Positions 3,641 to 57,610 of a stretch of DNA of 64,000 nt are shown here, in pieces (the stretch's first letter is position 1; each line of letters starts with the position of its first letter). The DNA is from Escherichia phage vB_Eco_F31: the sequence record OP870147.1. One strand, 5' to 3'. The position numbers were made by a program, and so were the translations under genes. The notes under the pieces were generated by a model that saw only the letters and a program-made list of their open reading frames with translations, was not told the DNA's origin and made no database searches.

Positions 3641-3671
3641 TAAAATTAAAATGAAGCTCCCGAAGGAGCTT
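3641..3671 (-). terminator. hairpin terminator with UUCG loop downstream of gene 39
   Basis: AAGCTCC-TTCG-GGAGCTT on the minus strand followed by T-rich tract; overlaps the gene 39 stop. Confidence 0.5.
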
Positions 3672-5487
3672 AGGACATCCATTCTTTACGAAGTTCTGAA
3701 TCATCACCCATCAACATTTCAAAGAGTTCTTTCCAATTTTCAGGAAGTTTAACTACGTCGTACACAGGGTTCTGAATCATTTCACGATATTCTGACTTTT
3801 CAAGGGAGCCTAATCCCTTGATGTATCGAATACTATGCTTAGGCAGTGTATCTTTAACTTCTTCATACTCAGCTACAGTATAAAACCATTTTTGAGTTTT
3901 GCCAATTTGTGCAATAATTACAGGCGTTTTAACAAAGCGAATACGTCCTTGTTCAAACAATTCAGGCCAATTACTAAAGAAAGCAAGCAAAGCCGGATAG
4001 ATACTTCCAAGACCGTCATGATCGGCATCGGTCATAATTGCAATATTACGATAGTTCGTATTCTCTGCCTTTTCACCAAGAATAAGACCTGTGATAGCAC
4101 AGATATCAAAGAGCTCTTTGTTCTTCATCATATCAGCATATGACATACCCCAGCTATTCATCACCTTACCACGTAATGGGAATCCGCCGTGTAGTTCACG
4201 GTCACGAACATCAATGAGATAACCAATTGCCGAATCACCTTCTGTTAAGAACAATGTCGTATCTGCATCTTTACCACATTGGTTAGCTTTAATATGCTTA
4301 TGAACCTTAGCTTTAGTTGCCTTTTTAGCTGCTTTAGTTTCTGCAGCCTTTTCTGCTGCCAATTTACGAGCTAATGCTGCTTCAACAATAGGCATAATCA
4401 AGGCTTCGTTTTTAAGAAGTGCCTGAGCAATTTTCTTAGCATCCAATTGGATATGATTACGAATATCACCATACGTTGACGTTAAACGTTCTTTAGTCTG
4501 AGAATCAAAACGCATGTTGCTCATGTCTCTAATAAACATCAACATTGTGAGACATTCTTTAACACGAGCTTTAGTGACTTCAATACCCTTATATTTCTTT
4601 TTAATACCCGGCAAAAGATGTTCGCAGATATCATCCATTACACATTCAACATGATGACCACCATTTTTAGTATGGATATTATTCACATAAGTTAAATGAC
4701 GGAAGCCATCTGGTGATGTTGTGAATGCTATAGAGACTTTATCATTTTCTTGAATGATGTTATCTTCACCAAATTGTTTAGCAAATCGTTTAAAATTACC
4801 ATCAACCTTTTTACCATTAAATGTGAACTTGATATCAGGATAAACGACTGCCAATGTTTGAAGTCTGTCTAAAGTAATATCTAAATAAATTTGAGATAAA
4901 TTATGCTCTTCAAATGAAGAGAAATCAGGAGTGAAGATTACTTTAGTGCCTTTACCTTTAGATTTCTTAGAAGACCATGATTTGTTTTCCATTCCGTTTG
5001 AACAGTTAACAGTGATTTCATTTTCGCCATCTGACGTTATGCCTGTAAACAACGTAGAGAAGATATTAGTTAAACTACTCCCGACGCCGTTCATACCACC
5101 AGTCTTGCGTTCAGAGTCATCACCAAAGTTACCACCGGCCTTTGGAATAGTCCAGGCTGCTACAGGCCCAGGAATTTGTTCACCCGTTTGGTCGGTAACT
5201 AAACCTTGAGGAATACCACGTCCGTTATCTTCCACCGAAACTTGATTATTTTTAATTTGCACATCAATTTTATTTGCAAACTTAAATGATGTACGAATAG
5301 CTTCATCAACCGAGTTGTCAATAATCTCATCGATTAATTTAACCAGACCAGGAACATATTCAACTTGTTGATATTTACCAAACAAAAAACGCTCATGTGC
5401 TTCTTTAGCAGAAGAACCAATATACATACCACTACGTTTCTTAATATGTTCTACATCTGACAATACCTTAATTTCATTTTTAATCAT
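3670..5487 (-). CDS. 39: DNA topoisomerase II large subunit (GyrB-like ATPase + Toprim), single uninterrupted ORF
   Basis: 605-aa ORF with GHKL ATPase and Toprim-like motifs (GGxxGxG-like NGVGSS, DADxDG = TDADHDG); equals T4 gp39+gp60 fused as in several T4 relatives. Confidence 0.85.
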   Translation of the reverse strand: MIKNEIKVLSDVEHIKKRSGMYIGSSAKEAHERFLFGKYQQVEYVPGLVKLIDEIIDNSVDEAIRTSFKFANKIDVQIKNNQVSVEDNGRGIPQGLVTDQTGEQIPGPVAAWTIPKAGGNFGDDSERKTGGMNGVGSSLTNIFSTLFTGITSDGENEITVNCSNGMENKSWSSKKSKGKGTKVIFTPDFSSFEEHNLSQIYLDITLDRLQTLAVVYPDIKFTFNGKKVDGNFKRFAKQFGEDNIIQENDKVSIAFTTSPDGFRHLTYVNNIHTKNGGHHVECVMDDICEHLLPGIKKKYKGIEVTKARVKECLTMLMFIRDMSNMRFDSQTKERLTSTYGDIRNHIQLDAKKIAQALLKNEALIMPIVEAALARKLAAEKAAETKAAKKATKAKVHKHIKANQCGKDADTTLFLTEGDSAIGYLIDVRDRELHGGFPLRGKVMNSWGMSYADMMKNKELFDICAITGLILGEKAENTNYRNIAIMTDADHDGLGSIYPALLAFFSNWPELFEQGRIRFVKTPVIIAQIGKTQKWFYTVAEYEEVKDTLPKHSIRYIKGLGSLEKSEYREMIQNPVYDVVKLPENWKELFEMLMGDDSELRKEWMS

Positions 5488-5499
5488 GTTGTCTCCTCG

Positions 5500-5535
5500 T
5501 TATGAAGGTATTCTATCATCCGAAATCTAAAGCAA
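5500..5535 (-). promoter_or_regulatory. MotA-box middle-type promoter upstream of gene 39
   Basis: Minus strand TTGCTTTAG - 11 nt - TAGAAT directly after the terminator hairpin. Confidence 0.45.
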
Positions 5536-5551
5536 AAAGGGCCGAAGCCCT
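5526..5551 (-). terminator. hairpin terminator with UUCG loop
   Basis: AAGGGC-TTCG-GCCCTT followed by TTTTTGC on the minus strand; directly followed by a MotA-box-like promoter for gene 39. Confidence 0.55.
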
Positions 5552-5976
5552 TATTTAAATTTAATTTTCTGAAGTGTATCAATTGCAGCCAAACGCCCTT
5601 GTTCACTTTTAACTGTAATGACCACATCGCCTGATACGATCACCGAACCATCAACAAATTCTATAGAGCCTTTTTTGAAATCGACAGCTGTATCTGGTTC
5701 CTGAACTTCTTCAAAGAATTTAAATTCTGCACCATAAAGCAGAATATCACCTTGCATACTATGAATAGTTCGGCCATAATCGCCTACGGCTTCTACAGCA
5801 ATAACCGAAACACCGTAACCAATCATCTCTTCCACAATAAAATCTTTGGACAATAAAGTAGTATGCAGATTAGTATTAAGACGTTTACCAGTCGTATTAA
5901 GAATTCTCAAGAAATTATCTTCCTGTCCTTTGATAATACGATATTTCTTACCAACTTCAAAACCTTTAAAAGCCAT
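5551..5976 (-). CDS. hypothetical protein (goF position by synteny)
   Basis: 141-aa ORF downstream of gene 39; same size as T4 goF, not otherwise verified. Confidence 0.45.
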   Translation of the reverse strand: MAFKGFEVGKKYRIIKGQEDNFLRILNTTGKRLNTNLHTTLLSKDFIVEEMIGYGVSVIAVEAVGDYGRTIHSMQGDILLYGAEFKFFEEVQEPDTAVDFKKGSIEFVDGSVIVSGDVVITVKSEQGRLAAIDTLQKIKFK

Positions 5977-8383: not shown

Positions 8384-8413
8384 ATTATACTCCATCCGTC
8401 CTTGGATGTACAA
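8384..8413 (-). promoter_or_regulatory. early promoter cassette (variant of the repeated cassette)
   Basis: Minus strand TGTACA-N17-GTATAAT with CCAAGGACGGATGG in the spacer. Confidence 0.45.
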
Positions 8414-8415
8414 CA

Positions 8416-8910
8416 TTAATTAAGGATATTAACCACAGCACTACGTGGAACTACACTAAAATCACCTGCATGAACAACGTTCAGAAGTTCAACACCGTCT
8501 TCAATCCACTGATCAGTCACCCATCCATTTACTGGACCAGCGAATGGGCGTCGAATTGAAACATATTTACACAACAAATCAGTAGGCTCAATAGGCTTAA
8601 TCAGAGTACCGTACATACAAGCGATATCCATATCAATACAGATATCTTTAACGGGTTCTACTTCTTCAATCAACAGTTCAAAGTCGGTGCTTGGAAGGGC
8701 GGTGGTAGAAATTGTACCATATGAATTTTTAATTTCTAAGAATAACCAAGGGCCTTCAACTTGTTTGATGAAGTTAACAATAGTGAAACTATTACCTTGA
8801 GTGGCACCTAAAATTTCACAAAACTTTTCATAAGCTCGCACTGAAGCACCGTACCAGTTGATTTGTTTTTCGTCTTTCAGGATGTAAGTAGCCGTAGTAT
8901 TGATATTCAT
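8416..8910 (-). CDS. hypothetical protein, member 3 of a tandem paralogue trio
   Basis: 164 aa; C-terminal GWVTDQWIEDGVELLNVVHAGDF; own early promoter. Confidence 0.55.
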   Translation of the reverse strand: MNINTTATYILKDEKQINWYGASVRAYEKFCEILGATQGNSFTIVNFIKQVEGPWLFLEIKNSYGTISTTALPSTDFELLIEEVEPVKDICIDMDIACMYGTLIKPIEPTDLLCKYVSIRRPFAGPVNGWVTDQWIEDGVELLNVVHAGDFSVVPRSAVVNILN

Positions 8911-8942: not shown

Positions 8943-8973
8943 ATTATACTCCAACCATCCTTGGTTGTAAACT
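8943..8973 (-). repeat. repeated early promoter cassette (copy 1), PeSL-like
   Basis: attatactccaaccatccttggttgta identical to copies near 50750 and 51770; GTTTAC-N17-GTATAAT on the minus strand. Confidence 0.55.
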
Positions 8974-12853: not shown

Positions 12854-13433
12854 AAAAATTCAACATTTTCAAATGAATGATTTTGTATAACCGAGATAAA
12901 GGGTCATATTCTAAGTCTTCAATTTCCACAATCTCAAATCTAGAGATACCTGAGACCATGTACTCTTGTTCAGATTCAATCATATCTAGGACGTCAACAC
13001 GCTTTTCTTCCATAACATGCTTAGGGTTCTTTCCGGCGAGTACAATGTTAATCATGTTTTGGTAGTAATCAAAAATGAATGGAGCATTCCTGAGACTAAG
13101 AATAGTGTACGTCTGATATTCCCATCTCCCAGAGAATTGACGAGCTGTACTGAAATCAGTTGTGAATGATGTTACTCGTCCAGGAGACCAATGGCATCCA
13201 ACAGAAAGAAGTGAAAGACGTTCTACTTCTTCTGGAGTTACACCACGGTAGAGTTCTACTGGTACTGTAGAAGTCATATGCTTACGAACAAGATGGTCTA
13301 ATTCATAGTGGAAATCCGGGTCTTCCTTAGAATCGGTGCAAGCCCAGAGAATGTTTTGTTCTTGGCGGGTGAATTTGCTATCAATCAGATTTGTTAGGTA
13401 TTCACGTTCTTGAAGTTCAGATTGACATGTCAT
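12852..13433 (-). CDS. modB: ADP-ribosyltransferase ModB-like
   Basis: 193 aa; paralogue of the preceding ORF; GGAGG RBS and early promoter upstream. Confidence 0.6.
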   Translation of the reverse strand: MTCQSELQEREYLTNLIDSKFTRQEQNILWACTDSKEDPDFHYELDHLVRKHMTSTVPVELYRGVTPEEVERLSLLSVGCHWSPGRVTSFTTDFSTARQFSGRWEYQTYTILSLRNAPFIFDYYQNMINIVLAGKNPKHVMEEKRVDVLDMIESEQEYMVSGISRFEIVEIEDLEYDPLSRLYKIIHLKMLNF

Positions 13434-13460
13434 GATAGACCTCCATTTAAAGATAAGCCT

Positions 13461-13490
13461 ATCATAACACGAGAGGAGGGAATGTAAACT
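13461..13490 (-). promoter_or_regulatory. early promoter upstream of modB
   Basis: Minus strand GTTTAC-N17-TATGAT, then GGAGG RBS. Confidence 0.5.
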
Positions 13491-14971: not shown

Positions 14972-14978
14972 GTAGAAA

Positions 14979-15006
14979 CAAAAAAAAAGGAATCCCGAAG
15001 GATTCC
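14979..15006 (-). terminator. rho-independent terminator downstream of soc
   Basis: GGAATCC-TTCG-GGATTCC followed by a T9 run on the minus strand. Confidence 0.75.
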
Positions 15007-15015
15007 TTAAATTAT

Positions 15016-15297: not shown

Positions 15298-15819
15298 TCA
15301 GTAACCATTATCCTGGCGTTCAAAGTTGTGTTGGTTTTTCAGGTAGTAAAGTTTAAAGATTTCTTCAGCGGAAAGACCCAGACCTTGGAACATATTCAGA
15401 ACAAAGTGGAGGATATCAATCATCTCAAATTTAATTTCAAGCTGGTCTTCAGGAGACAGTTCATCGATACGACGATTTCGATATTCAGCATGTTGTGCTT
15501 TCCATGGCTTCCATACACTGCTGGCAGCTTTTTCGCCATTGGACATACCACCAAGTGAAGTCAGCAGTTCACGGAATTCATCATCAATATAATCTTTCTG
15601 ATTACGCAGCCAATCAACAACATCGCCAGCAGTGGCCAATTCATCAGGATGTTTGTTATGTTCAGGCTTGTCATTTGCCAGACGAACCTGTAAAGATTTC
15701 TGCATATCAAGCATTACCTGCAATGGGTCTTTATCTTCGTGAATCAGAGCATTAAAATAAGCTTCTTCTGCTTTATCAACACCAGAAATAAGCTGTGAAC
15801 ATTCGTTAAAGTGTGCCAT
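15298..15819 (-). CDS. 56: dCTP pyrophosphatase (MazG-like), gp56
   Basis: 173 aa; size and synteny next to soc and the primase. Confidence 0.65.
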   Translation of the reverse strand: MAHFNECSQLISGVDKAEEAYFNALIHEDKDPLQVMLDMQKSLQVRLANDKPEHNKHPDELATAGDVVDWLRNQKDYIDDEFRELLTSLGGMSNGEKAASSVWKPWKAQHAEYRNRRIDELSPEDQLEIKFEMIDILHFVLNMFQGLGLSAEEIFKLYYLKNQHNFERQDNGY

Positions 15820-18797: not shown

Positions 18798-18827
18798 TTT
18801 AACTCCTTAGTTGATTTGATAGGACTA

Positions 18828-18857
18828 CTATACTATAGTCCATCTATAATGTAAACA
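18828..18857 (-). promoter_or_regulatory. early promoter upstream of sp
   Basis: Minus strand GTTTAC-N17-TATAGT-AGTCCTATC. Confidence 0.5.
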
Positions 18858-20573: not shown

Positions 20574-20603
20574 TCATATCATGCCTAGAGGAAGATGTAA
20601 ACC
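20574..20603 (-). promoter_or_regulatory. early promoter downstream of gene 41
   Basis: Minus strand GTTTAC-N17-ATATGA immediately after the UUCG hairpin. Confidence 0.35.
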
Positions 20604-20606
20604 CCT

Positions 20607-20628
20607 AAAGGAGACCGAAGTCTCCTTT
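20607..20628 (-). terminator. stable UUCG hairpin downstream of gene 41 (terminator or RNA stability element)
   Basis: AAAGGAGAC-TTCG-GTCTCCTTT; no U-run on the minus strand, so function uncertain. Confidence 0.35.
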
Positions 20629-22082: not shown

Positions 22083-22424
22083 TTAAAAGAATTTAAATTT
22101 TTTCTTGGTCCGTTCATTAAAAGCTTGTTGTACTTGCATTGTAACACATTTTTCAACATGTGGTGCAAGTTCTGCTTTTCTGTCCTGGTCAAGAACTGCA
22201 AAGTCCATTACGATTTTACCATCAACCCAGTCTAGTTTTGTAATATAGACTATATGATGGGAACCGTCTTCAAGTGTAATCAGAATCTCTTGAATGACAT
22301 TTTCCATTGCTGAACGGACAATTTTAAGAGATTCATTAAACACTCGTTCTTTGCGAATGTCTTCCCCTTCCGAAGAAGGGGATTCATCAACGATTTCTAG
22401 ATTTAAATCATCGAGATTATTCAT
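22083..22424 (-). CDS. 40: gp40-like head assembly protein
   Basis: about 113 aa from MNNLDDLNLEIV; between 41 and uvsX as in T4. Confidence 0.5.
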   Translation of the reverse strand: MNNLDDLNLEIVDESPSSEGEDIRKERVFNESLKIVRSAMENVIQEILITLEDGSHHIVYITKLDWVDGKIVMDFAVLDQDRKAELAPHVEKCVTMQVQQAFNERTKKKFKFF

Positions 22425-29608: not shown

Positions 29609-30240
29609 TGTTCGCCTCGTAACATGGCACCTAGTGCACCGCCTGGATGGAACTTAAGGAAATCATTAGAGGTAAATCCACGTTCAGACGAAAGGTTGAT
29701 AGCGAACGTATCGATAAGCGCTAACAACAATGTAGTAGACATTGTCGGAGCTAAAGAGTTCTCGTCAACTTCTACCGCGATACCGGTACAGAACGTATAA
29801 TCAAAAAGAGCTTCGTATTCTTGTGGAATGTCAGGGTTACAATGTAACAGAATCTGTTTAACCTGAGGACGAATCATACGAAGATGTTTAGCAACACCTA
29901 TCATTTCTTCAGTCTTACCAGAACGACTGATGTGAACTAATACATCATTAGGTGCAATAAATCCTGCGTCACCATGAGAATAATGCCCAGTGTTCAAATA
30001 CATGCTAGGAATACCTAGTGAAGCAAAAGTCTCGGAAGCTTTAGTTGCGATATTAGCATTCTTACCAACACCTGTAATAATTACCCGGCTTTCATAATTA
30101 CTAAGTCCAGGGCGTCGAAGAGTTTCTAGAATAGCATTATATCGGGCAGGGTTTTGACTAATTACTTTAGCCATAGTGGCAAGAGATGAAGCTTGTTTTA
30201 CGATTGCGTCAATAGCGATAGTAATAGGAGTAGTTTTCAT
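29605..30240 (-). CDS. SIS-domain sugar-phosphate isomerase, KdsD/GutQ (arabinose-5-phosphate isomerase)-like
   Basis: 211 aa; ITGVGKNANIATKASETFASLGIPSMYLNTGHYSHGDAGF parallels the KdsD SIS motif [38 protein letters not shown]; no CBS domains. Confidence 0.65.
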   Translation of the reverse strand: MKTTPITIAIDAIVKQASSLATMAKVISQNPARYNAILETLRRPGLSNYESRVIITGVGKNANIATKASETFASLGIPSMYLNTGHYSHGDAGFIAPNDVLVHISRSGKTEEMIGVAKHLRMIRPQVKQILLHCNPDIPQEYEALFDYTFCTGIAVEVDENSLAPTMSTTLLLALIDTFAINLSSERGFTSNDFLKFHPGGALGAMLRGEQ

Positions 30241-32992: not shown

Positions 32993-33051
32993 TTAATTTC
33001 CTTTAGACGAGTTATTGTCTTTTGTTTGTTGATGAACTTATTATACTCCAA

Positions 33052-33069
33052 ATGGGACCGAAGTCCCAT
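33052..33069 (-). terminator. UUCG hairpin downstream of regA, upstream of gene 43
   Basis: ATGGGAC-TTCG-GTCCCAT immediately after the regA stop, followed by TTTGGAGTATAAT. Confidence 0.4.
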
Positions 33070-33073
33070 TGCT

Positions 33074-34972: not shown

Positions 34973-35047
34973 GTAATTTTCCTCATTATCATTAAACTGG
35001 AGGATTTCTCCTCCATAATCGTACTACATTAAACGTAAAGCTTTGAC

Positions 35048-36448: not shown

Positions 36449-38137
36449 TTATGAAACAGTCATTACCGTAAATCGTCCAACTTTGCTCATCTGAAGATGT
36501 TGTCCATAACGTTGAGGGTCATGGTCTCGATGAGAGATAATGAACACATTAGTATTTTGTAAACTTCCAAGAATGGTATCTATAGCCTTAACAGCTTCAG
36601 AATCTACAGCGCCGTCAAAAACCTCATCAAGAATCAGAGTGTTGATTTTAACACCAGAGACCTTTTCAGCAATATCTCGCCATGTAAACAACAATGCGAT
36701 ATCGATACGTGCCTTTTCACCTTGACTAAATGAAGCATAACTAAAATCTTCACGACCACGTGATTTTATAGATTCATTGAATTCTTCATCAATAGAAAAC
36801 ACGTAATCAGCTTCCATGATTTTAAGATAATGGTTAATCTGCTTATTGAACAAAGGCACGTATTTTTTAATGATAGCACCTTTAATACCAGAATCTTTTA
36901 ACATATCTGTGATAATACCACGATGGTATTTTTCAAGAACGATATCCGATTTTGTTTTAATGATTTTATCAAGTTCTTTTTGAAGCAAAGCTATCTCATC
37001 GGCATGGTCGATAAATTCCGCCGAGGCTTGTTCTATTGCAGCTTTAACTTTCTTAGCTTTATCAATAGTGGCAATCATTGCTTGTTTCTTGGTACGAATA
37101 TCAGATGCAAGGTCCTGTTTAGTCTTAACATTAGCTCTATATTCGTCCACTAGGACACTCAGATTATCTCTGTGACAGGTAAGTTGCTCGAATGAGTGAT
37201 TACATTCATGAAGCTTATCGGTAATCTTAGAGACAATAGGATCACCCTGGTGCAACTGTGATGCACAAGTAGGACATGTACCACCATCATGATACATCTT
37301 AATAACTTTGTTATATGAGTCGATTTTAGATTTAATCAAGAATGCTTCTTGTCCGATCTTGTTGAATGCCTCAGTAGGGTCTTCATCAAGAACGATATTA
37401 AGTAGTCGCTCATTAGCTTCTTCGATTTCTGCTTTTAATGAACGAGCTTCTTTGGCTAGGTCGTCATACATATTCTGTAGACGCGCTACATTATCACCAG
37501 ATAATTTCTTTTGACGTTCGATATTCTCGTTATAAATCTTAATTTGTTGGATAACACCATCTTTCTTGGCATCGAGAACTTGTCCCTGGGAATTAAGTTC
37601 TCGAACTTGAGACTTATTGATTTTATCCATTTCGGCGAGTGTGCCGACTTCTAAAAGGTCTTCGACAAGTTTTCTACGAGCAGGGGTGCTAAGAGCCATG
37701 AAAGGGGTATACCCTGCCGTCCCAAGCACAACGATTTGTTTAAAAGACGCGTATGACATTCCGATGCTACGTTCAAATTCTTCTTGGAAGTCACGACTGC
37801 TGGCAGATTCATCGAGACGAACACCGTCAACGGAGATTTCGAAAATATTGGGCTTTTGGCCGCGTCTAATGAAGTATTTTTTATCATCGAATTCCATCCA
37901 AAGCTCAACTAAGAGCTCTTTCTTGTTCGTGCTATTAATGATTTGTCCTTTCTTAACATCACGAAATGGTTTACCGAAAAGTCCGAAAGTAATGGCTTCT
38001 AACATCGTAGATTTACCACCACCATTTTTACCAGTGATTAATGTCTTTTGGACTTTATCTAATTGGATATCAATAGGATTCCCACCTACCGACATGATGT
38101 TTTGATAACGAACACGATTTAATTTAAATGATTTCAT
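36449..38137 (-). CDS. 46: recombination endonuclease subunit gp46 (Rad50/SbcC-like ATPase)
   Basis: 562 aa; Walker A GKNGGGKST; coiled-coil middle; Walker B LILDEVFDG. Confidence 0.85.
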   Translation of the reverse strand: MKSFKLNRVRYQNIMSVGGNPIDIQLDKVQKTLITGKNGGGKSTMLEAITFGLFGKPFRDVKKGQIINSTNKKELLVELWMEFDDKKYFIRRGQKPNIFEISVDGVRLDESASSRDFQEEFERSIGMSYASFKQIVVLGTAGYTPFMALSTPARRKLVEDLLEVGTLAEMDKINKSQVRELNSQGQVLDAKKDGVIQQIKIYNENIERQKKLSGDNVARLQNMYDDLAKEARSLKAEIEEANERLLNIVLDEDPTEAFNKIGQEAFLIKSKIDSYNKVIKMYHDGGTCPTCASQLHQGDPIVSKITDKLHECNHSFEQLTCHRDNLSVLVDEYRANVKTKQDLASDIRTKKQAMIATIDKAKKVKAAIEQASAEFIDHADEIALLQKELDKIIKTKSDIVLEKYHRGIITDMLKDSGIKGAIIKKYVPLFNKQINHYLKIMEADYVFSIDEEFNESIKSRGREDFSYASFSQGEKARIDIALLFTWRDIAEKVSGVKINTLILDEVFDGAVDSEAVKAIDTILGSLQNTNVFIISHRDHDPQRYGQHLQMSKVGRFTVMTVS

Positions 38138-38617: not shown

Positions 38618-39633
38618 TGTGTTGCCTCAATATAAAGTTCGTTGGAATATTTGACCAGCGCTTCTCTGTCTTCGTCTGAGATATCTGGAATAGCGTCAAT
38701 ATATTCTTTAATGATATCTTGAAGTGATTTAATCTCGATTTCCTGGTCGTCATCAGATTCAACACTGTTATCAACTTTAGAAACCATACGAAGAGAGTGA
38801 ACTACTTTTTCAAGTTCAGATTCAAACTTAGTCAACTCAGAATCGATTTCTGATACTATAACACGTACGGCTAGATTAGTATAATCAGAATAATTGATTT
38901 TGCCTTTAAACGGATAAGTGATTCGTCGATGCCATGTTGTTTCATTAGGAATAAATTCCATACGTTCAACATCAGTGTCAAATACCCAGAATCCTCGAGG
39001 GTCGTTCTCATCGCCTGCAGTAAGGGTCCATGGTGTCCCAATATATTTGACGTTAGCAGCTTCAGAGATTGTGTGGAAGTGGCCGGACCAGACTTGTTTA
39101 TAAGTCTTTAAGAAATCAGGTTCAAGCCCATGAGACTTCATTCCTTTATAGAAATAAAAGCCGTTCAGTTCCCAGTGCCCAACACAATACGCTGCAGAAG
39201 AAGTCTTGATGTGCTCTAAGATTTCACCTGTATTTTCTTCACACATCCATGGAACGATATCAATCAGACATCCGTCAAAATCTACAGTAGTCGGATGCTC
39301 GTAAATAGTAAAGTTTTCAAATTGAGTTAACAATTCAGAAACAGTGTTAGGTGTTATTGTATTCTTAAACGCCATGTCATGGTTTCCTATCGTGACATGA
39401 ACGTGAATACCTGCTTTAGAAATCATATCAACGATTTCACGATTGAATTCCATTGTACGATGTGTTATTGCTTTACGAACGTCGAACCAATCACCGTACT
39501 GAATCCAAGTTTTAATCCCGTGTTTCTTAGAGTATTCAATTGCTTGTTGAATACCATCACGTTGAATATCTTGAACCCATGGGTCGTCTTGTTTGACTCC
39601 GATATGGAAGTCGCCTAAGTGCAAAATTTTCAT
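38614..39633 (-). CDS. 47: recombination endonuclease subunit gp47 (Mre11/SbcD-like phosphoesterase)
   Basis: 339 aa; N-terminal MKILHLGDFHIG metallophosphatase motif. Confidence 0.85.
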   Translation of the reverse strand: MKILHLGDFHIGVKQDDPWVQDIQRDGIQQAIEYSKKHGIKTWIQYGDWFDVRKAITHRTMEFNREIVDMISKAGIHVHVTIGNHDMAFKNTITPNTVSELLTQFENFTIYEHPTTVDFDGCLIDIVPWMCEENTGEILEHIKTSSAAYCVGHWELNGFYFYKGMKSHGLEPDFLKTYKQVWSGHFHTISEAANVKYIGTPWTLTAGDENDPRGFWVFDTDVERMEFIPNETTWHRRITYPFKGKINYSDYTNLAVRVIVSEIDSELTKFESELEKVVHSLRMVSKVDNSVESDDDQEIEIKSLQDIIKEYIDAIPDISDEDREALVKYSNELYIEATQ

Positions 39634-39649
39634 ATTATTTCCTCATTAG

Positions 39650-39682
39650 TTAATTCATTCTATCATCCGTTTATAAAGCAAA
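39650..39682 (-). promoter_or_regulatory. MotA-box middle-type promoter upstream of gene 47
   Basis: Minus strand TTGCTTTAT - 11 nt - TAGAAT; shares CGGATGATAGAAT with the gene 39 promoter. Confidence 0.45.
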
Positions 39683-39704
39683 AAAGGAACTCCGAAGAGT
39701 TCCT
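39675..39704 (-). terminator. rho-independent terminator with UUCG loop upstream of gene 47
   Basis: AGGAACTC-TTCG-GAGTTCCT followed by TTTTTTGCTTT on the minus strand. Confidence 0.65.
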
Positions 39705-42379: not shown

Positions 42380-42442
42380 GATATTTTCCTCATTTTAAGA
42401 CGATAGGAAGATAATAACATGTCTTCCTATCGTTGTACATTA

Positions 42443-50749: not shown

Positions 50750-50778
50750 TTATACTCCAACCATCCTTGGTTGTAAAC
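50750..50778 (-). repeat. repeated early promoter cassette (copy 2), PeSL-like
   Basis: attatactccaaccatccttggttgtaaac; GTTTAC-N17-GTATAAT on the minus strand upstream of ORF 49770-50720. Confidence 0.55.
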
Positions 50779-51769: not shown

Positions 51770-51797
51770 TTATACTCCAACCATCCTTGGTTGTACA
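51770..51797 (-). repeat. repeated early promoter cassette (copy 3), PeSL-like
   Basis: attatactccaaccatccttggttgtaca upstream of ORF 50783-51742. Confidence 0.55.
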
Positions 51798-53383: not shown

Positions 53384-53410
53384 GTTTTACCTCCAGTAGT
53401 TGATAGGTCT

Positions 53411-53439
53411 ATAATAACATAACCATAGACCTTGTAAAC
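53411..53439 (-). promoter_or_regulatory. early promoter GTTTAC-N17-TATTAT-AGACCTATC
   Basis: Inverted repeat AGGTCTAT/ATAGACCT flanks the -10; upstream of ORF 52856-53383. Confidence 0.55.
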
Positions 53440-54914: not shown

Positions 54915-54945
54915 TACTTTTTTAAAAATATTTTAACCCCCTAAA

Positions 54946-54961
54946 GGGACCCGAAGGTCCC
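54946..54961 (-). terminator. UUCG hairpin downstream of the secreted-protein gene
   Basis: GGGACC-TTCG-GGTCCC; weak U tract. Confidence 0.35.
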
Positions 54962-57445: not shown

Positions 57446-57581
57446 TTTACCATACTCGTTTCAATAAGATTCACTATGCCGTTTACCATGTTATAAGTAA
57501 ACATCGGATAATTGTATTGTACTACAACATAAGCGATAAGCAAAAGTTTCATTTTGTTCTCCGTTTGTTTTGATAGGACTA

Positions 57582-57610
57582 CTATAACATAGTCCTACCA
57601 AGATGTAAAC
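57582..57610 (-). promoter_or_regulatory. early promoter GTTTAC-N17-TTATAG-AGTCCTATC
   Basis: Perfect 8-bp inverted repeat TAGGACTA/TAGTCCTA around the -10. Confidence 0.5.

What the first reader, a model, noticed from the sequence alone, without database searches (positions are those of the whole stretch)
14979..15006. Minus-strand hairpins almost all carry a UUCG tetraloop
Seven hairpins (3654-3671, 5536-5551, 14989-15006, 20607-20628, 33052-33069, 39685-39704, 54946-54961) have cgaa on the plus strand at the loop, which is UUCG in the minus-strand RNA. Several lack a U-run and may act as RNA stability or processing elements and not as terminators.
Basis: seen in the sequence. Interest (0 to 1): 0.35.

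Follow-up and report, generated by a model that had tools for sequence, protein, structure and literature searches.

The report
Classic T4-type UUCG terminator hairpins
The window is the early-gene region of a T4-like phage, and the flagged hairpins are the well-known extra-stable C(UUCG)G stem-loops that T4-type phages place just after genes to end or protect their messenger RNAs, so the finding is real but ordinary.

Summary
All seven hairpins exist, and there is an eighth at 22363-22382. All eight have perfect 6-9 bp stems closed by C-G around UUCG in the minus (mRNA) sense. That is 8 observed against 0.08 expected, with none in the opposite sense.

The window is the rIIA-proximal 64 kb of a Mosigvirus, a T4-like phage 98% identical to JK36 and MM02. 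Seven hairpins start between 2 nt before and 7 nt after the end of a stop codon. In the close relative MM02, 25 of 25 UUCG hairpins lie in the sense of the local genes. That record already annotates five of these seven as putative terminators.

T4, JS98 and metagenomic relatives carry hairpins at the same gene junctions with different, compensating stems.

This is the C(UUCG)G hairpin class described in T4 in 1988. Three sites are canonical intrinsic terminators with U-runs, and two of those are followed directly by MotA-type middle promoters. Four have only UUU tails. One is embedded in gene 40.

A stabiliser or weak-terminator role for the U-poor sites is plausible but untested. "Almost all hairpins" is overstated: UUCG caps 7 of 22 intergenic hairpins, though 7 of the 8 intergenic tetraloop hairpins.

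Verdict: already known, low interest.

The parts
3654..3671 (-). C(UUCG)G hairpin AAGCUCC-UUCG-GGAGCUU. It overlaps the stop codon of the gene 39 homolog (topoisomerase II large subunit) and lies 26 nt upstream of the next ATG. The tail is CAUUUUAAUUUU, U-rich but interrupted.
   Evidence: annotated as a putative terminator in MM02; orthologous junctions in other T4-like phages carry hairpins with varied loops
5537..5552 (-). C(UUCG)G hairpin AAGGGC-UUCG-GCCCUU. It overlaps the stop codon of the goF homolog. Together with the terminal stem Us, the tail reads UUUUUGCUUU, making it a canonical intrinsic terminator.
   Evidence: putative terminator in MM02; identical hairpin in JS98 and a variant stem in T4 upstream of gene 39
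5510..5536 (-). U-run followed by a MotA box TGCUUUA (5528-5534) and a -10-like TAGAAT (5510-5515). This looks like a middle promoter for gene 39 placed directly after the terminator.
   Evidence: motif offsets; the flank shares an 18-score local match with the 39685 site
14987..15008 (-). C(UUCG)G hairpin AAGGAAUCC-UUCG-GGAUUCCUU, starting 7 nt after the stop codon of the soc homolog.
   Evidence: z = -4.1; putative terminator in MM02; 17 of 18 IMG/VR soc orthologs carry a UUCG hairpin plus U-run here, with covarying stems
14975..14986 (-). U-run UUUUUUUGUUUC (the A-run on the plus strand inside the finding's coordinates). It completes a canonical intrinsic terminator.
   Evidence: tail score 6.17, against a genome 99th percentile of 3.04
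20607..20628 (-). C(UUCG)G hairpin AAAGGAGAC-UUCG-GUCUCCUUU, starting 2 nt after the stop codon of gene 41 (helicase). The tail is UUUAGGGGUUUACA, with only three Us, and GGAG lies inside the stem.
   Evidence: putative terminator in MM02; JS98 has AAGGAGC-UUCG-GCUCCUU plus UUUUGUUUU at the same junction; more distant phages have other hairpins there
22363..22382 (-). C(UUCG)G hairpin UCCCCUUC-UUCG-GAAGGGGA inside gene 40 (peptide SPSSEGE), 35 nt after the uvsX stop codon. It has no U-run.
   Evidence: T4 has UCCCCCUC-UUCG-GAGGGGGA, which differs by a synonymous compensatory change (CCC/GAG vs CCU/GAA); JS98 has an unrelated 7-bp hairpin at the same position; RB49 has an intergenic hairpin plus U-run after uvsX
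33051..33070 (-). C(UUCG)G hairpin AAUGGGAC-UUCG-GUCCCAUU, starting 3 nt after the regA stop codon and 58 nt upstream of gene 43 (DNA polymerase). It contains GGAC(UUCG)GUCC.
   Evidence: T4 and JS98 have hairpins at the same place with different stems
33040..33050 (-). Conserved tail UGGAGUAUAAU directly after the hairpin. The same GGAGTATAAT string ends the early-promoter-like units elsewhere in the window. It may be a -10 element and/or a GGAG RegB-type site. Its function was not determined.
39685..39704 (-). C(UUCG)G hairpin AGGAACUC-UUCG-GAGUUCCU, overlapping the stop codon of a 57-aa ORF (a-gt.2 homolog). The tail is UUUUUGCUUU, making it a canonical intrinsic terminator.
   Evidence: z = -3.75; putative terminator in MM02; all 8 orthologous hairpins with dG <= -7 kcal/mol carry UUCG, with four different stems
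39657..39684 (-). U-run, MotA box TGCUUUA (39674-39680) and -10-like TAGAAT (39657-39662). This looks like a middle promoter for gene 47.
54946..54961 (-). C(UUCG)G hairpin GGGACC-UUCG-GGUCCC, starting about 5 nt after the stop codon of an 88-aa ORF. The tail is UUUAGGGGGUUA.
   Evidence: the only distant ortholog found has AAAGGACCC-UUCG-GGGUCCUUU plus UUUAUUUU

Best explanation
These are the classical C(UUCG)G extra-stable tetraloop hairpins of T4-type phages, here in a Mosigvirus. They act in the mRNA, not in the DNA.

Each forms at the 3' side of a cistron as host RNA polymerase transcribes the leftward early and middle gene block. Where a U-run follows (14987, 39685, 5537), the hairpin is a Rho-independent terminator. 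At 5537 and 39685 transcription is then re-started by a MotA-type middle promoter placed directly behind it. Where only UUU or no U-run follows (3654, 20607, 33051, 54946, 22363), the hairpin most likely acts in one of two ways. It may be a weak, leaky terminator, or it may block 3'-to-5' exonucleases and so fix and stabilise the 3' end of the upstream message after read-through or endonucleolytic cleavage.

Shown here: the existence of the hairpins, their non-random number, their strand sense, their position after stop codons, conservation of the structure through stem covariation, and replacement of UUCG by other stable tetraloops.

Inferred, not shown: that termination or RNA stabilisation actually happens at each site.
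For: - **Identity of the phage.** The window is 98% identical to Shigella phage JK36 and Escherichia phage MM02, genus Mosigvirus, Tevenvirinae.
- **Enrichment and strand bias.** There are 8 hairpins against 0.083 expected, and 0 in the antisense orientation.
- **Genome-wide sense orientation.** In MM02, 25 of 25 UUCG hairpins lie in the sense of the local genes, including 7 on the plus strand inside plus-strand late-gene blocks (two-sided p = 6e-8).
- **Position.** Seven of eight lie in the 7.6% of the window that is intergenic (p = 1e-7) and start between 2 nt before and 7 nt after the end of a stop codon.
- **Existing annotation.** 17 of the 23 terminators annotated in MM02 have UUCG loops, one has UCCG and one has GUAA. 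Five of them are our sites.
- **Orthologous junctions.**
  - After soc, 17 of 18 orthologs have UUCG plus a U-run, and 4 of 8 stem pairs show changes on both sides.
  - At regA/43, 6 of 7 stem pairs show changes on both sides. The loop is mostly UUCG but also UACG, UCCG, GAAA, UUAC or CGUG.
  - At site 7, all 8 hairpins with dG <= -7 kcal/mol carry UUCG, with four different stems.
  - T4 and JS98 carry UUCG hairpins at the same junctions.
- **Gene 40 site.** The T4 and window versions differ by a synonymous compensatory change. JS98 has a non-homologous hairpin there, and RB49 has an intergenic hairpin plus U-run after uvsX.
- **U-tails.** Tail scores are 6.17, 4.76 and 4.26 at the three strong sites, against a genome 99th percentile of 3.04.
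[quoted passage not shown] 1988). UUCG and GAAA hairpins serve as Rho-independent terminators (PMC3972237). T4 intergenic stem-loops such as terminators often carry UUCG (PMC1702504).
Against: - No transcript 3'-end data exist for this phage or were found for T4 in the searchable library. Termination and stabilisation are therefore both unproven at every site.
- Four sites have only three Us after the stem and one has none, so they fail a strict intrinsic-terminator definition.
- At 33051 the hairpin occupies the position, relative to GGAGTATAAT, that spacer palindromes occupy in the window's early-promoter-like units. A DNA-level or promoter-linked role there is not excluded.
- The covariation alignments were built by picking hairpins anchored on the loop. 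The 100% pairing is therefore partly by construction.
- z-scores of the local folds are modest, from -1.2 to -4.1.
Confidence: 0.85

Rival explanations
1. All eight hairpins, including the U-poor ones, are simply intrinsic terminators of graded strength. They attenuate read-through between cistrons and have no separate stability function.
For: Five are annotated as putative terminators in MM02. All seven intergenic sites start their tail with at least UUU and score above the genome 95th percentile of 2.37. Orthologs of the U-poor sites 20607 and 54946 have full U-runs in JS98 and in L198.
Against: The 22363 site has no U at all and lies inside a translated gene. The tail UUUGGAGUAUAAU at 33051 is conserved as such, rather than drifting towards a U-run, across genera.
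Confidence: 0.3
2. The U-poor hairpins are dedicated mRNA 3'-end protectors or processing marks. They would block PNPase, RNase II and RNase R after endonucleolytic cleavage, and set different half-lives for segments of polycistronic early and middle transcripts.
For: The hairpins sit immediately after stop codons, they are extremely stable C(UUCG)G caps, and other stable tetraloops substitute for UUCG. Published uses of CUUCGG hairpins include transcript stabilisation in T4 (PMC8948821). GGAG inside such stems is RegB-resistant in T4 (PMC1702504), and the 20607 stem contains GGAG.
Against: There is no direct 3'-end or half-life evidence. The same architecture with a U-run occurs at orthologous sites, which suggests termination is the ancestral role.
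Confidence: 0.35
3. The palindromes work at the DNA level, for example as protein-binding sites, promoter spacer elements or cruciforms. Under this reading the UUCG is incidental.
For: Other palindromes in the window sit inside early-promoter-like units (GTTTACA, then a palindrome, then GGAGTATAAT). The 33051 hairpin is followed by the same GGAGTATAAT string.
Against: A DNA palindrome has no preferred loop orientation, yet orientation is 8 of 8 here and 25 of 25 in MM02 in the mRNA sense. Stems covary freely while the loops stay within the stable RNA tetraloop families UNCG and GNRA. The closing pair is C-G in 8 of 8.
Confidence: 0.03
4. The hairpins are copies of a small repeated or mobile element, or a chance cluster.
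For: Some stems recur in the relative's genome. For example, GGGAGAC-UUCG-GUCUCCC occurs three times in MM02.
Against: The eight stems in the window all differ. The 40-nt flanks are unrelated, except for the shared middle-promoter motif at 5537 and 39685. Chance is excluded by the shuffles.
Confidence: 0.02

Closest known systems
C(UUCG)G hairpins of bacteriophage T4 intercistronic regions (Tuerk et al. 1988, PNAS 85:1364; summarised in PMC8948821 and PMC3972237)
   Same: The loop and closing pair are the same, the phage lineage is the same, and so are the intergenic mRNA-sense location and several gene junctions. T4 has UUCG hairpins after soc, between regA and 43, inside gene 40, upstream of gene 39 and near gene 47. 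The 33051 site contains GGAC(UUCG)GUCC, which from my own knowledge is the sequence used for the classic NMR structure (Cheong, Varani and Tinoco 1990, reference listed).
   Different: Nothing essential differs. The stems differ by compensatory changes, and the set of occupied junctions differs slightly. For example, this phage and JS98 have a UUCG hairpin after gene 41 but T4 does not.
Rho-independent (intrinsic) terminators of E. coli and its phages (d'Aubenton Carafa et al. 1990, cited in PMC3972237)
   Same: They share a GC-rich stem, a stable tetraloop, a position after a gene, and a U-run at 14987, 39685 and 5537.
   Different: Five of the eight sites have three or fewer Us after the stem, and one lies inside a coding sequence.
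3' stem-loop mRNA stabilisers that block 3'-to-5' exonucleases (for example REP-type or terminator hairpins protecting upstream mRNA; from general knowledge)
   Same: Both are stable hairpins directly 3' of a cistron within polycistronic transcripts.
   Different: These sites are single small tetraloop hairpins rather than repeated REP units. A protective function has not been shown here.
T4 gene 60 translational-bypass hairpin, a UUCG-capped stem in the 50-nt coding gap (PMC3014915)
   Same: It has the same tetraloop cap, and T4 carries it at 2834-2857.
   Different: This phage has an uninterrupted gene 39 (605 aa) and no bypass context. None of the eight sites sits in a coding gap.

Membership tests
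T4-type C(UUCG)G intercistronic hairpins (Tuerk et al. 1988) | UUCG tetraloop closed by a C-G pair on a Watson-Crick stem | tested here: met
   8 of 8 sites read C(UUCG)G with perfect 6-9 bp stems; each is in the MFE fold
T4-type C(UUCG)G intercistronic hairpins (Tuerk et al. 1988) | Located in intergenic (intercistronic) regions, in the sense of the mRNA | tested here: met
   7 of 8 are intergenic (p = 1e-7); 8 of 8 are in the sense orientation here and 25 of 25 in MM02. The eighth lies in gene 40, as in T4
T4-type C(UUCG)G intercistronic hairpins (Tuerk et al. 1988) | Host genome is a T4-type phage, with hairpins at junctions shared with T4 | tested here: met
   98% identity to Mosigvirus phages; T4 has orthologous UUCG hairpins after soc, at regA/43, in gene 40 and upstream of genes 39 and 47
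T4-type C(UUCG)G intercistronic hairpins (Tuerk et al. 1988) | Exceptional thermal stability; blocks reverse transcriptase | not testable with these tools
   Only nearest-neighbour energies are available: -8.8 to -13.5 kcal/mol for the bare hairpins
Rho-independent terminator | GC-rich stem-loop directly followed by a U-run (about 4 or more Us within 8 nt) | tested here: inconclusive
   Met at 14987 (8 of 8 Us), 39685 and 5537 (6 of 8), and 3654 (6 of 8, interrupted). Only 3-4 of 8 at 20607, 33051 and 54946. Not met at 22363 (2 of 8, tail score 0.13)
Rho-independent terminator | Transcript 3' ends form at the site in vivo or in vitro | not testable with these tools
   No Term-seq or 3'-end data for T4-like phages were found in the library
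3' exonuclease-barrier / mRNA stabiliser hairpin | Presence of the hairpin increases the half-life of the upstream RNA; processed 3' ends abut the stem | not testable with these tools
   Only positional evidence is available: the hairpins start between 2 nt before and 7 nt after the end of a stop codon
Any curated Rfam RNA family | Match to a covariance model at the gathering score | tested here: not met
   0 matches in the whole window. This is expected, since simple terminator hairpins are not Rfam families

The most novel reading that the evidence does not exclude
The U-poor C(UUCG)G hairpins would be a conserved class of non-terminating 3'-end-defining or stabilising elements that partition polycistronic T4-type transcripts. 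The strongest candidate is the one embedded in the first 20 codons of gene 40, 35 nt after the uvsX stop codon. It is maintained by synonymous compensatory substitutions between T4 and this phage, replaced by an unrelated hairpin in JS98, and replaced by an intergenic terminator in RB49. On this reading the gene-40 hairpin would also couple uvsX mRNA 3'-end formation to gene 40 translation.
Probability: 0.3. Interest if true: 0.3.

Novelty: already known. Interest (0 to 1): 0.1.

Why it matters
It matters little for discovery. C(UUCG)G hairpins were first described in T4 itself, and close relatives of this phage already carry terminator annotations at these positions.

The practical value is for annotation. 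The eight sites mark cistron and transcript boundaries. Two of them, together with the MotA boxes behind them, delimit middle-transcription units for genes 39 and 47. The comparative data also give a clean textbook case of selection for RNA structure: the stems covary and UUCG is exchanged only for other stable tetraloops. If 3'-end mapping were done, the U-poor sites would be a convenient natural series for separating termination from exonuclease blocking.

Tried and rejected
- **Chance.** Rejected by dinucleotide shuffles (the first attempt, timed out).
- **DNA-level palindrome.** Rejected on orientation: 8 of 8 here and 25 of 25 in MM02.
- **Repeated or mobile element.** Rejected because the flanks are unrelated and all stems differ.
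- **Known Rfam family.** None matched.
- **Literature look-ups.** The primary Tuerk 1988 paper and the Miller 2003 T4 genome review are not held, so secondary citations were used. No Term-seq or 3'-end mapping for T4 was found, and 'CUUCGG' with 'intercistronic' gave no papers.
- **Universality of the gene 41 hairpin.** I looked at whether the gene 41 downstream UUCG hairpin is universal. It is not. More distant T4-like phages have long hairpins with 6-nt loops there, although JS98 has a UUCG terminator.
- **A sigma-70 promoter at 33051.** I considered whether the 33051 hairpin plus GGAGTATAAT is a complete sigma-70 promoter. Reading the sequence by eye, I saw no acceptable -35 hexamer at 16-18 bp spacing, and I left the function of the tail open.
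- **First energy scan.** overwrote 4-nt loops with 6-nt loops for identical spans. This was corrected.

Full report
**What the window is.**
All ORFs of at least 100 aa that look like real genes lie on the minus strand. An 8-kb piece of the window is 98% identical to Shigella phage JK36, Escherichia phage MM02 and many other T4-like phages. MM02 is classified in Straboviridae, Tevenvirinae, genus Mosigvirus. The gene order runs rIIA, 39, goF, dexA, dda, soc, 56, 61, 41, 40, uvsX, 43, regA, 62, 44, 45, 46, 47, 55 and onwards. That is the leftward early and middle block at the start of the standard T4 map.

**Checking the observation.**
All seven hairpins are present. Three coordinates need small corrections. 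The listed 5536-5551 is really 5537-5552. The listed 14989-15006 and 33052-33069 are inner parts of longer stems, at 14987-15008 and 33051-33070. Each site has a perfect 6-9 bp stem and reads C(UUCG)G in the minus sense. An eighth site of the same kind lies at 22363-22382.

- Dinucleotide-preserving shuffles give a mean of 0.083 such hairpins (stem at least 6 bp; maximum 2 in 300 shuffles), against 8 observed.
- None has UUCG in the plus sense, although the tetramer TTCG is equally common on both strands (257 vs 267).
- UUCG is the commonest tetraloop by a wide margin: 8 of 34 hairpins, with the next commonest loop at 3.
- RNAfold places every hairpin in the minimum-free-energy fold of its roughly 50-nt context, with z-scores from -1.2 to -4.1.

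The title claim "almost all" is overstated. Among intergenic minus-sense hairpins with dG <= -8 kcal/mol and loops of 3-12 nt, 7 of 22 carry UUCG. Among the intergenic tetraloop hairpins, 7 of 8 do, and the other carries GAAA.

**Where the hairpins sit.**
Seven of the eight lie in the 7.6% of the window that is intergenic (binomial p = 1e-7). They start between 2 nt before and 7 nt after the end of the stop codon of the upstream gene. The upstream genes are gene 39, the goF homolog, soc, gene 41, regA, a 57-aa a-gt.2 homolog and an 88-aa ORF. The eighth lies 35 nt after the uvsX stop codon, inside the first 21 codons of gene 40, where it encodes SPSSEGE.

**U-runs.**
I counted from the end of the G+C core of each stem.

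| Site | Tail | Tail score | Reading |
|---|---|---|---|
| 14987 | UUUUUUUUUG | 6.17 | canonical intrinsic terminator |
| 39685 | UUUUUUGCUUU | 4.76 | canonical intrinsic terminator |
| 5537 | UUUUUGCUUU | 4.26 | canonical intrinsic terminator |
| 3654 | interrupted U-rich tail | 2.83 | U-poor |
| 20607 | UUU, then purines | 2.59 | U-poor |
| 33051 | UUU, then purines | 2.58 | U-poor |
| 54946 | UUU, then purines | 2.50 | U-poor |
| 22363 | no U-run | 0.13 | none |

For comparison, the genome 99th percentile of this score is 3.04.

At 5537 and 39685 the U-run runs straight into a MotA box (TGCTTTA). About 12 nt later comes GGATGATAGAAT, which includes a -10-like TAGAAT. This looks like a middle promoter restarting transcription for genes 39 and 47.

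**RNA-level or DNA-level?**
A DNA palindrome has no preferred loop orientation. The nearly identical phage MM02 has both leftward and rightward gene blocks across 166 kb. There, 25 of 25 UUCG-loop hairpins with stems of at least 5 bp lie in the sense of the local genes. Seven are on the plus strand inside the plus-strand late blocks and 18 are on the minus strand (two-sided p = 6e-8).

The depositors of MM02 annotated 23 putative terminators. Of these, 17 have UUCG loops, one has UCCG and one has GUAA. Five of them correspond to our sites. T4 (first 40 kb) has 7 sense against 1 antisense. JS98 (first 50 kb) has 5 against 0. RB49 has only one convincing example.

**Conservation and covariation.**
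T4 carries UUCG hairpins at the same junctions but with different stems:

- after soc, at 15303-15324;
- between regA and 43, at 29952-29969;
- inside gene 40, at 22329-22348;
- upstream of gene 39, at 5381-5398;
- near gene 47, at 36607-36626 and 38715-38734.

IMG/VR orthologs extend this picture:

- **After soc.** 17 of 18 loci have UUCG and all have a U-run. Four of the eight stem pairs show changes on both sides.
- **Upstream of gene 43.** Six of the seven stem pairs show changes on both sides. The loop is mostly UUCG but is replaced by UACG, UCCG, GAAA, UUAC or CGUG in some lineages. In JS98 the hairpin stays next to gene 43 even though an extra ORF separates it from regA.
- **At the a-gt.2 junction.** All 8 hairpins with dG <= -7 kcal/mol carry UUCG, with four different stems. 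The single distant ortholog of the 54946 site has UUCG, a different stem and a full U-run.
- **After gene 39 and after gene 41.** A hairpin is usually present, but the loop varies among genera. JS98 has a UUCG hairpin plus U-run after gene 41.

One caveat applies. I built these alignments by picking the hairpin and anchoring on its loop, so full pairing is partly by construction. The informative result is that orthologous positions carry differently sequenced stems capped by stable tetraloops.

**The gene 40 site.**
T4 has UCCCCCUC-UUCG-GAGGGGGA and this phage has UCCCCUUC-UUCG-GAAGGGGA. The two differences are CCC to CCU (Pro) and GAG to GAA (Glu). Both are synonymous, and they pair with each other.

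More distant relatives keep CCCCCUC-UCAG-GAGGGGG. JS98 has an unrelated 7-bp hairpin (GAGGGUC-CUAGU-GACCCUC) at the same distance from the uvsX stop codon. In RB49, uvsX and gene 40 do not overlap, and an intergenic hairpin plus U-run follows uvsX. This points to a conserved element that forms the 3' end of the uvsX message.

**Interpretation.**
The sites are the C(UUCG)G hairpins first described in T4.

- PMC8948821, citing Tuerk et al. 1988, states that such hairpins are predominantly intergenic, especially abundant in T4 phages, stop reverse transcriptase, and have varied functions including transcript stabilisation.
- PMC3972237 states that UUCG and GAAA hairpins serve as Rho-independent terminators.
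- PMC1702504 notes that T4 intergenic stem-loops such as terminators often contain UUCG, and that GGAG inside them resists RegB.

I therefore read three sites as intrinsic terminators. I read the U-poor ones as leaky terminators and/or 3'-exonuclease barriers. The second part is inference only, because no 3'-end data were available. No Rfam family matches the window.

**Verdict.**
The phenomenon is already known, and the interest is low.

Noticed in passing
window 8952-8967, 50758-50773, 51778-51793 and about 8393-8420 (minus sense): There are early-promoter-like units of the form GTTTACA, a spacer palindrome, then GGAGTATAAT. The palindrome CAACCAAGGATGGTTG occurs three times identically, and a fourth unit has the compensated variant CATCCAAGGACGGATG. 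The palindrome fills the -35/-10 spacer.
   Followed up: partly
window 57570-57601, 53405-53432, 18822-18841 (minus sense): A second class of long palindromes overlaps the -10 (TATAGT or TATTAT) of GTTTACA promoters. All end in CCTATCAA. Similar long hairpins with GGTATA or GTTATA loops follow gene 41 in other T4-like phages (L108, L110, L115, L116). The 5' half would be transcribed only in read-through RNA.
   Followed up: partly
window 5510-5536 and 39657-39684 (minus sense): These are terminator-promoter modules. The U-run of the UUCG terminator merges into a MotA box (TGCTTTA), followed by GGATGATAGAAT. The motif is shared almost exactly upstream of genes 39 and 47.
   Followed up: partly
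window 33040-33050 (minus sense); T4 L001 about 29940-29951; JS98 L008 about 30005-30016: The tail (U)UGGAGUAUAAU after the regA/43 hairpin is conserved across genera. It equals the -10 end of the early-promoter-like units, and it also begins with GGAG, a possible RegB-type site. Which of these matters is unknown.
   Followed up: partly
window 20597-20606 and 54936-54945 (minus sense): The two U-poor hairpins after gene 41 and after the 88-aa ORF share the tail UUUAGGGG. This may be coincidence.
   Followed up: no
window 42399-42434: This is a very stable intergenic hairpin with a 12-14 bp stem and a long loop containing AUG, at -15.7 kcal/mol in the minus sense. It has no U-run and no UUCG. 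An even longer one, with a 17-bp stem, lies at 13426-13471.
   Followed up: no
window 34998-35015 (minus sense): A GAAA-tetraloop hairpin, UGGAGGA-GAAA-UCCUCCA, lies between genes 45 and 44, 25 nt upstream of the gene 44 ATG. Its stem contains GGAGGA. It could be a terminator or stabiliser, or it could sequester a Shine-Dalgarno-like sequence.
   Followed up: no
window 3670-5487: Gene 39 is a single 605-aa ORF here, with no gene 60 split, no mobA insertion and no 50-nt bypass gap. T4 carries its UUCG-capped bypass hairpin at 2834-2857 of L001.
   Followed up: no
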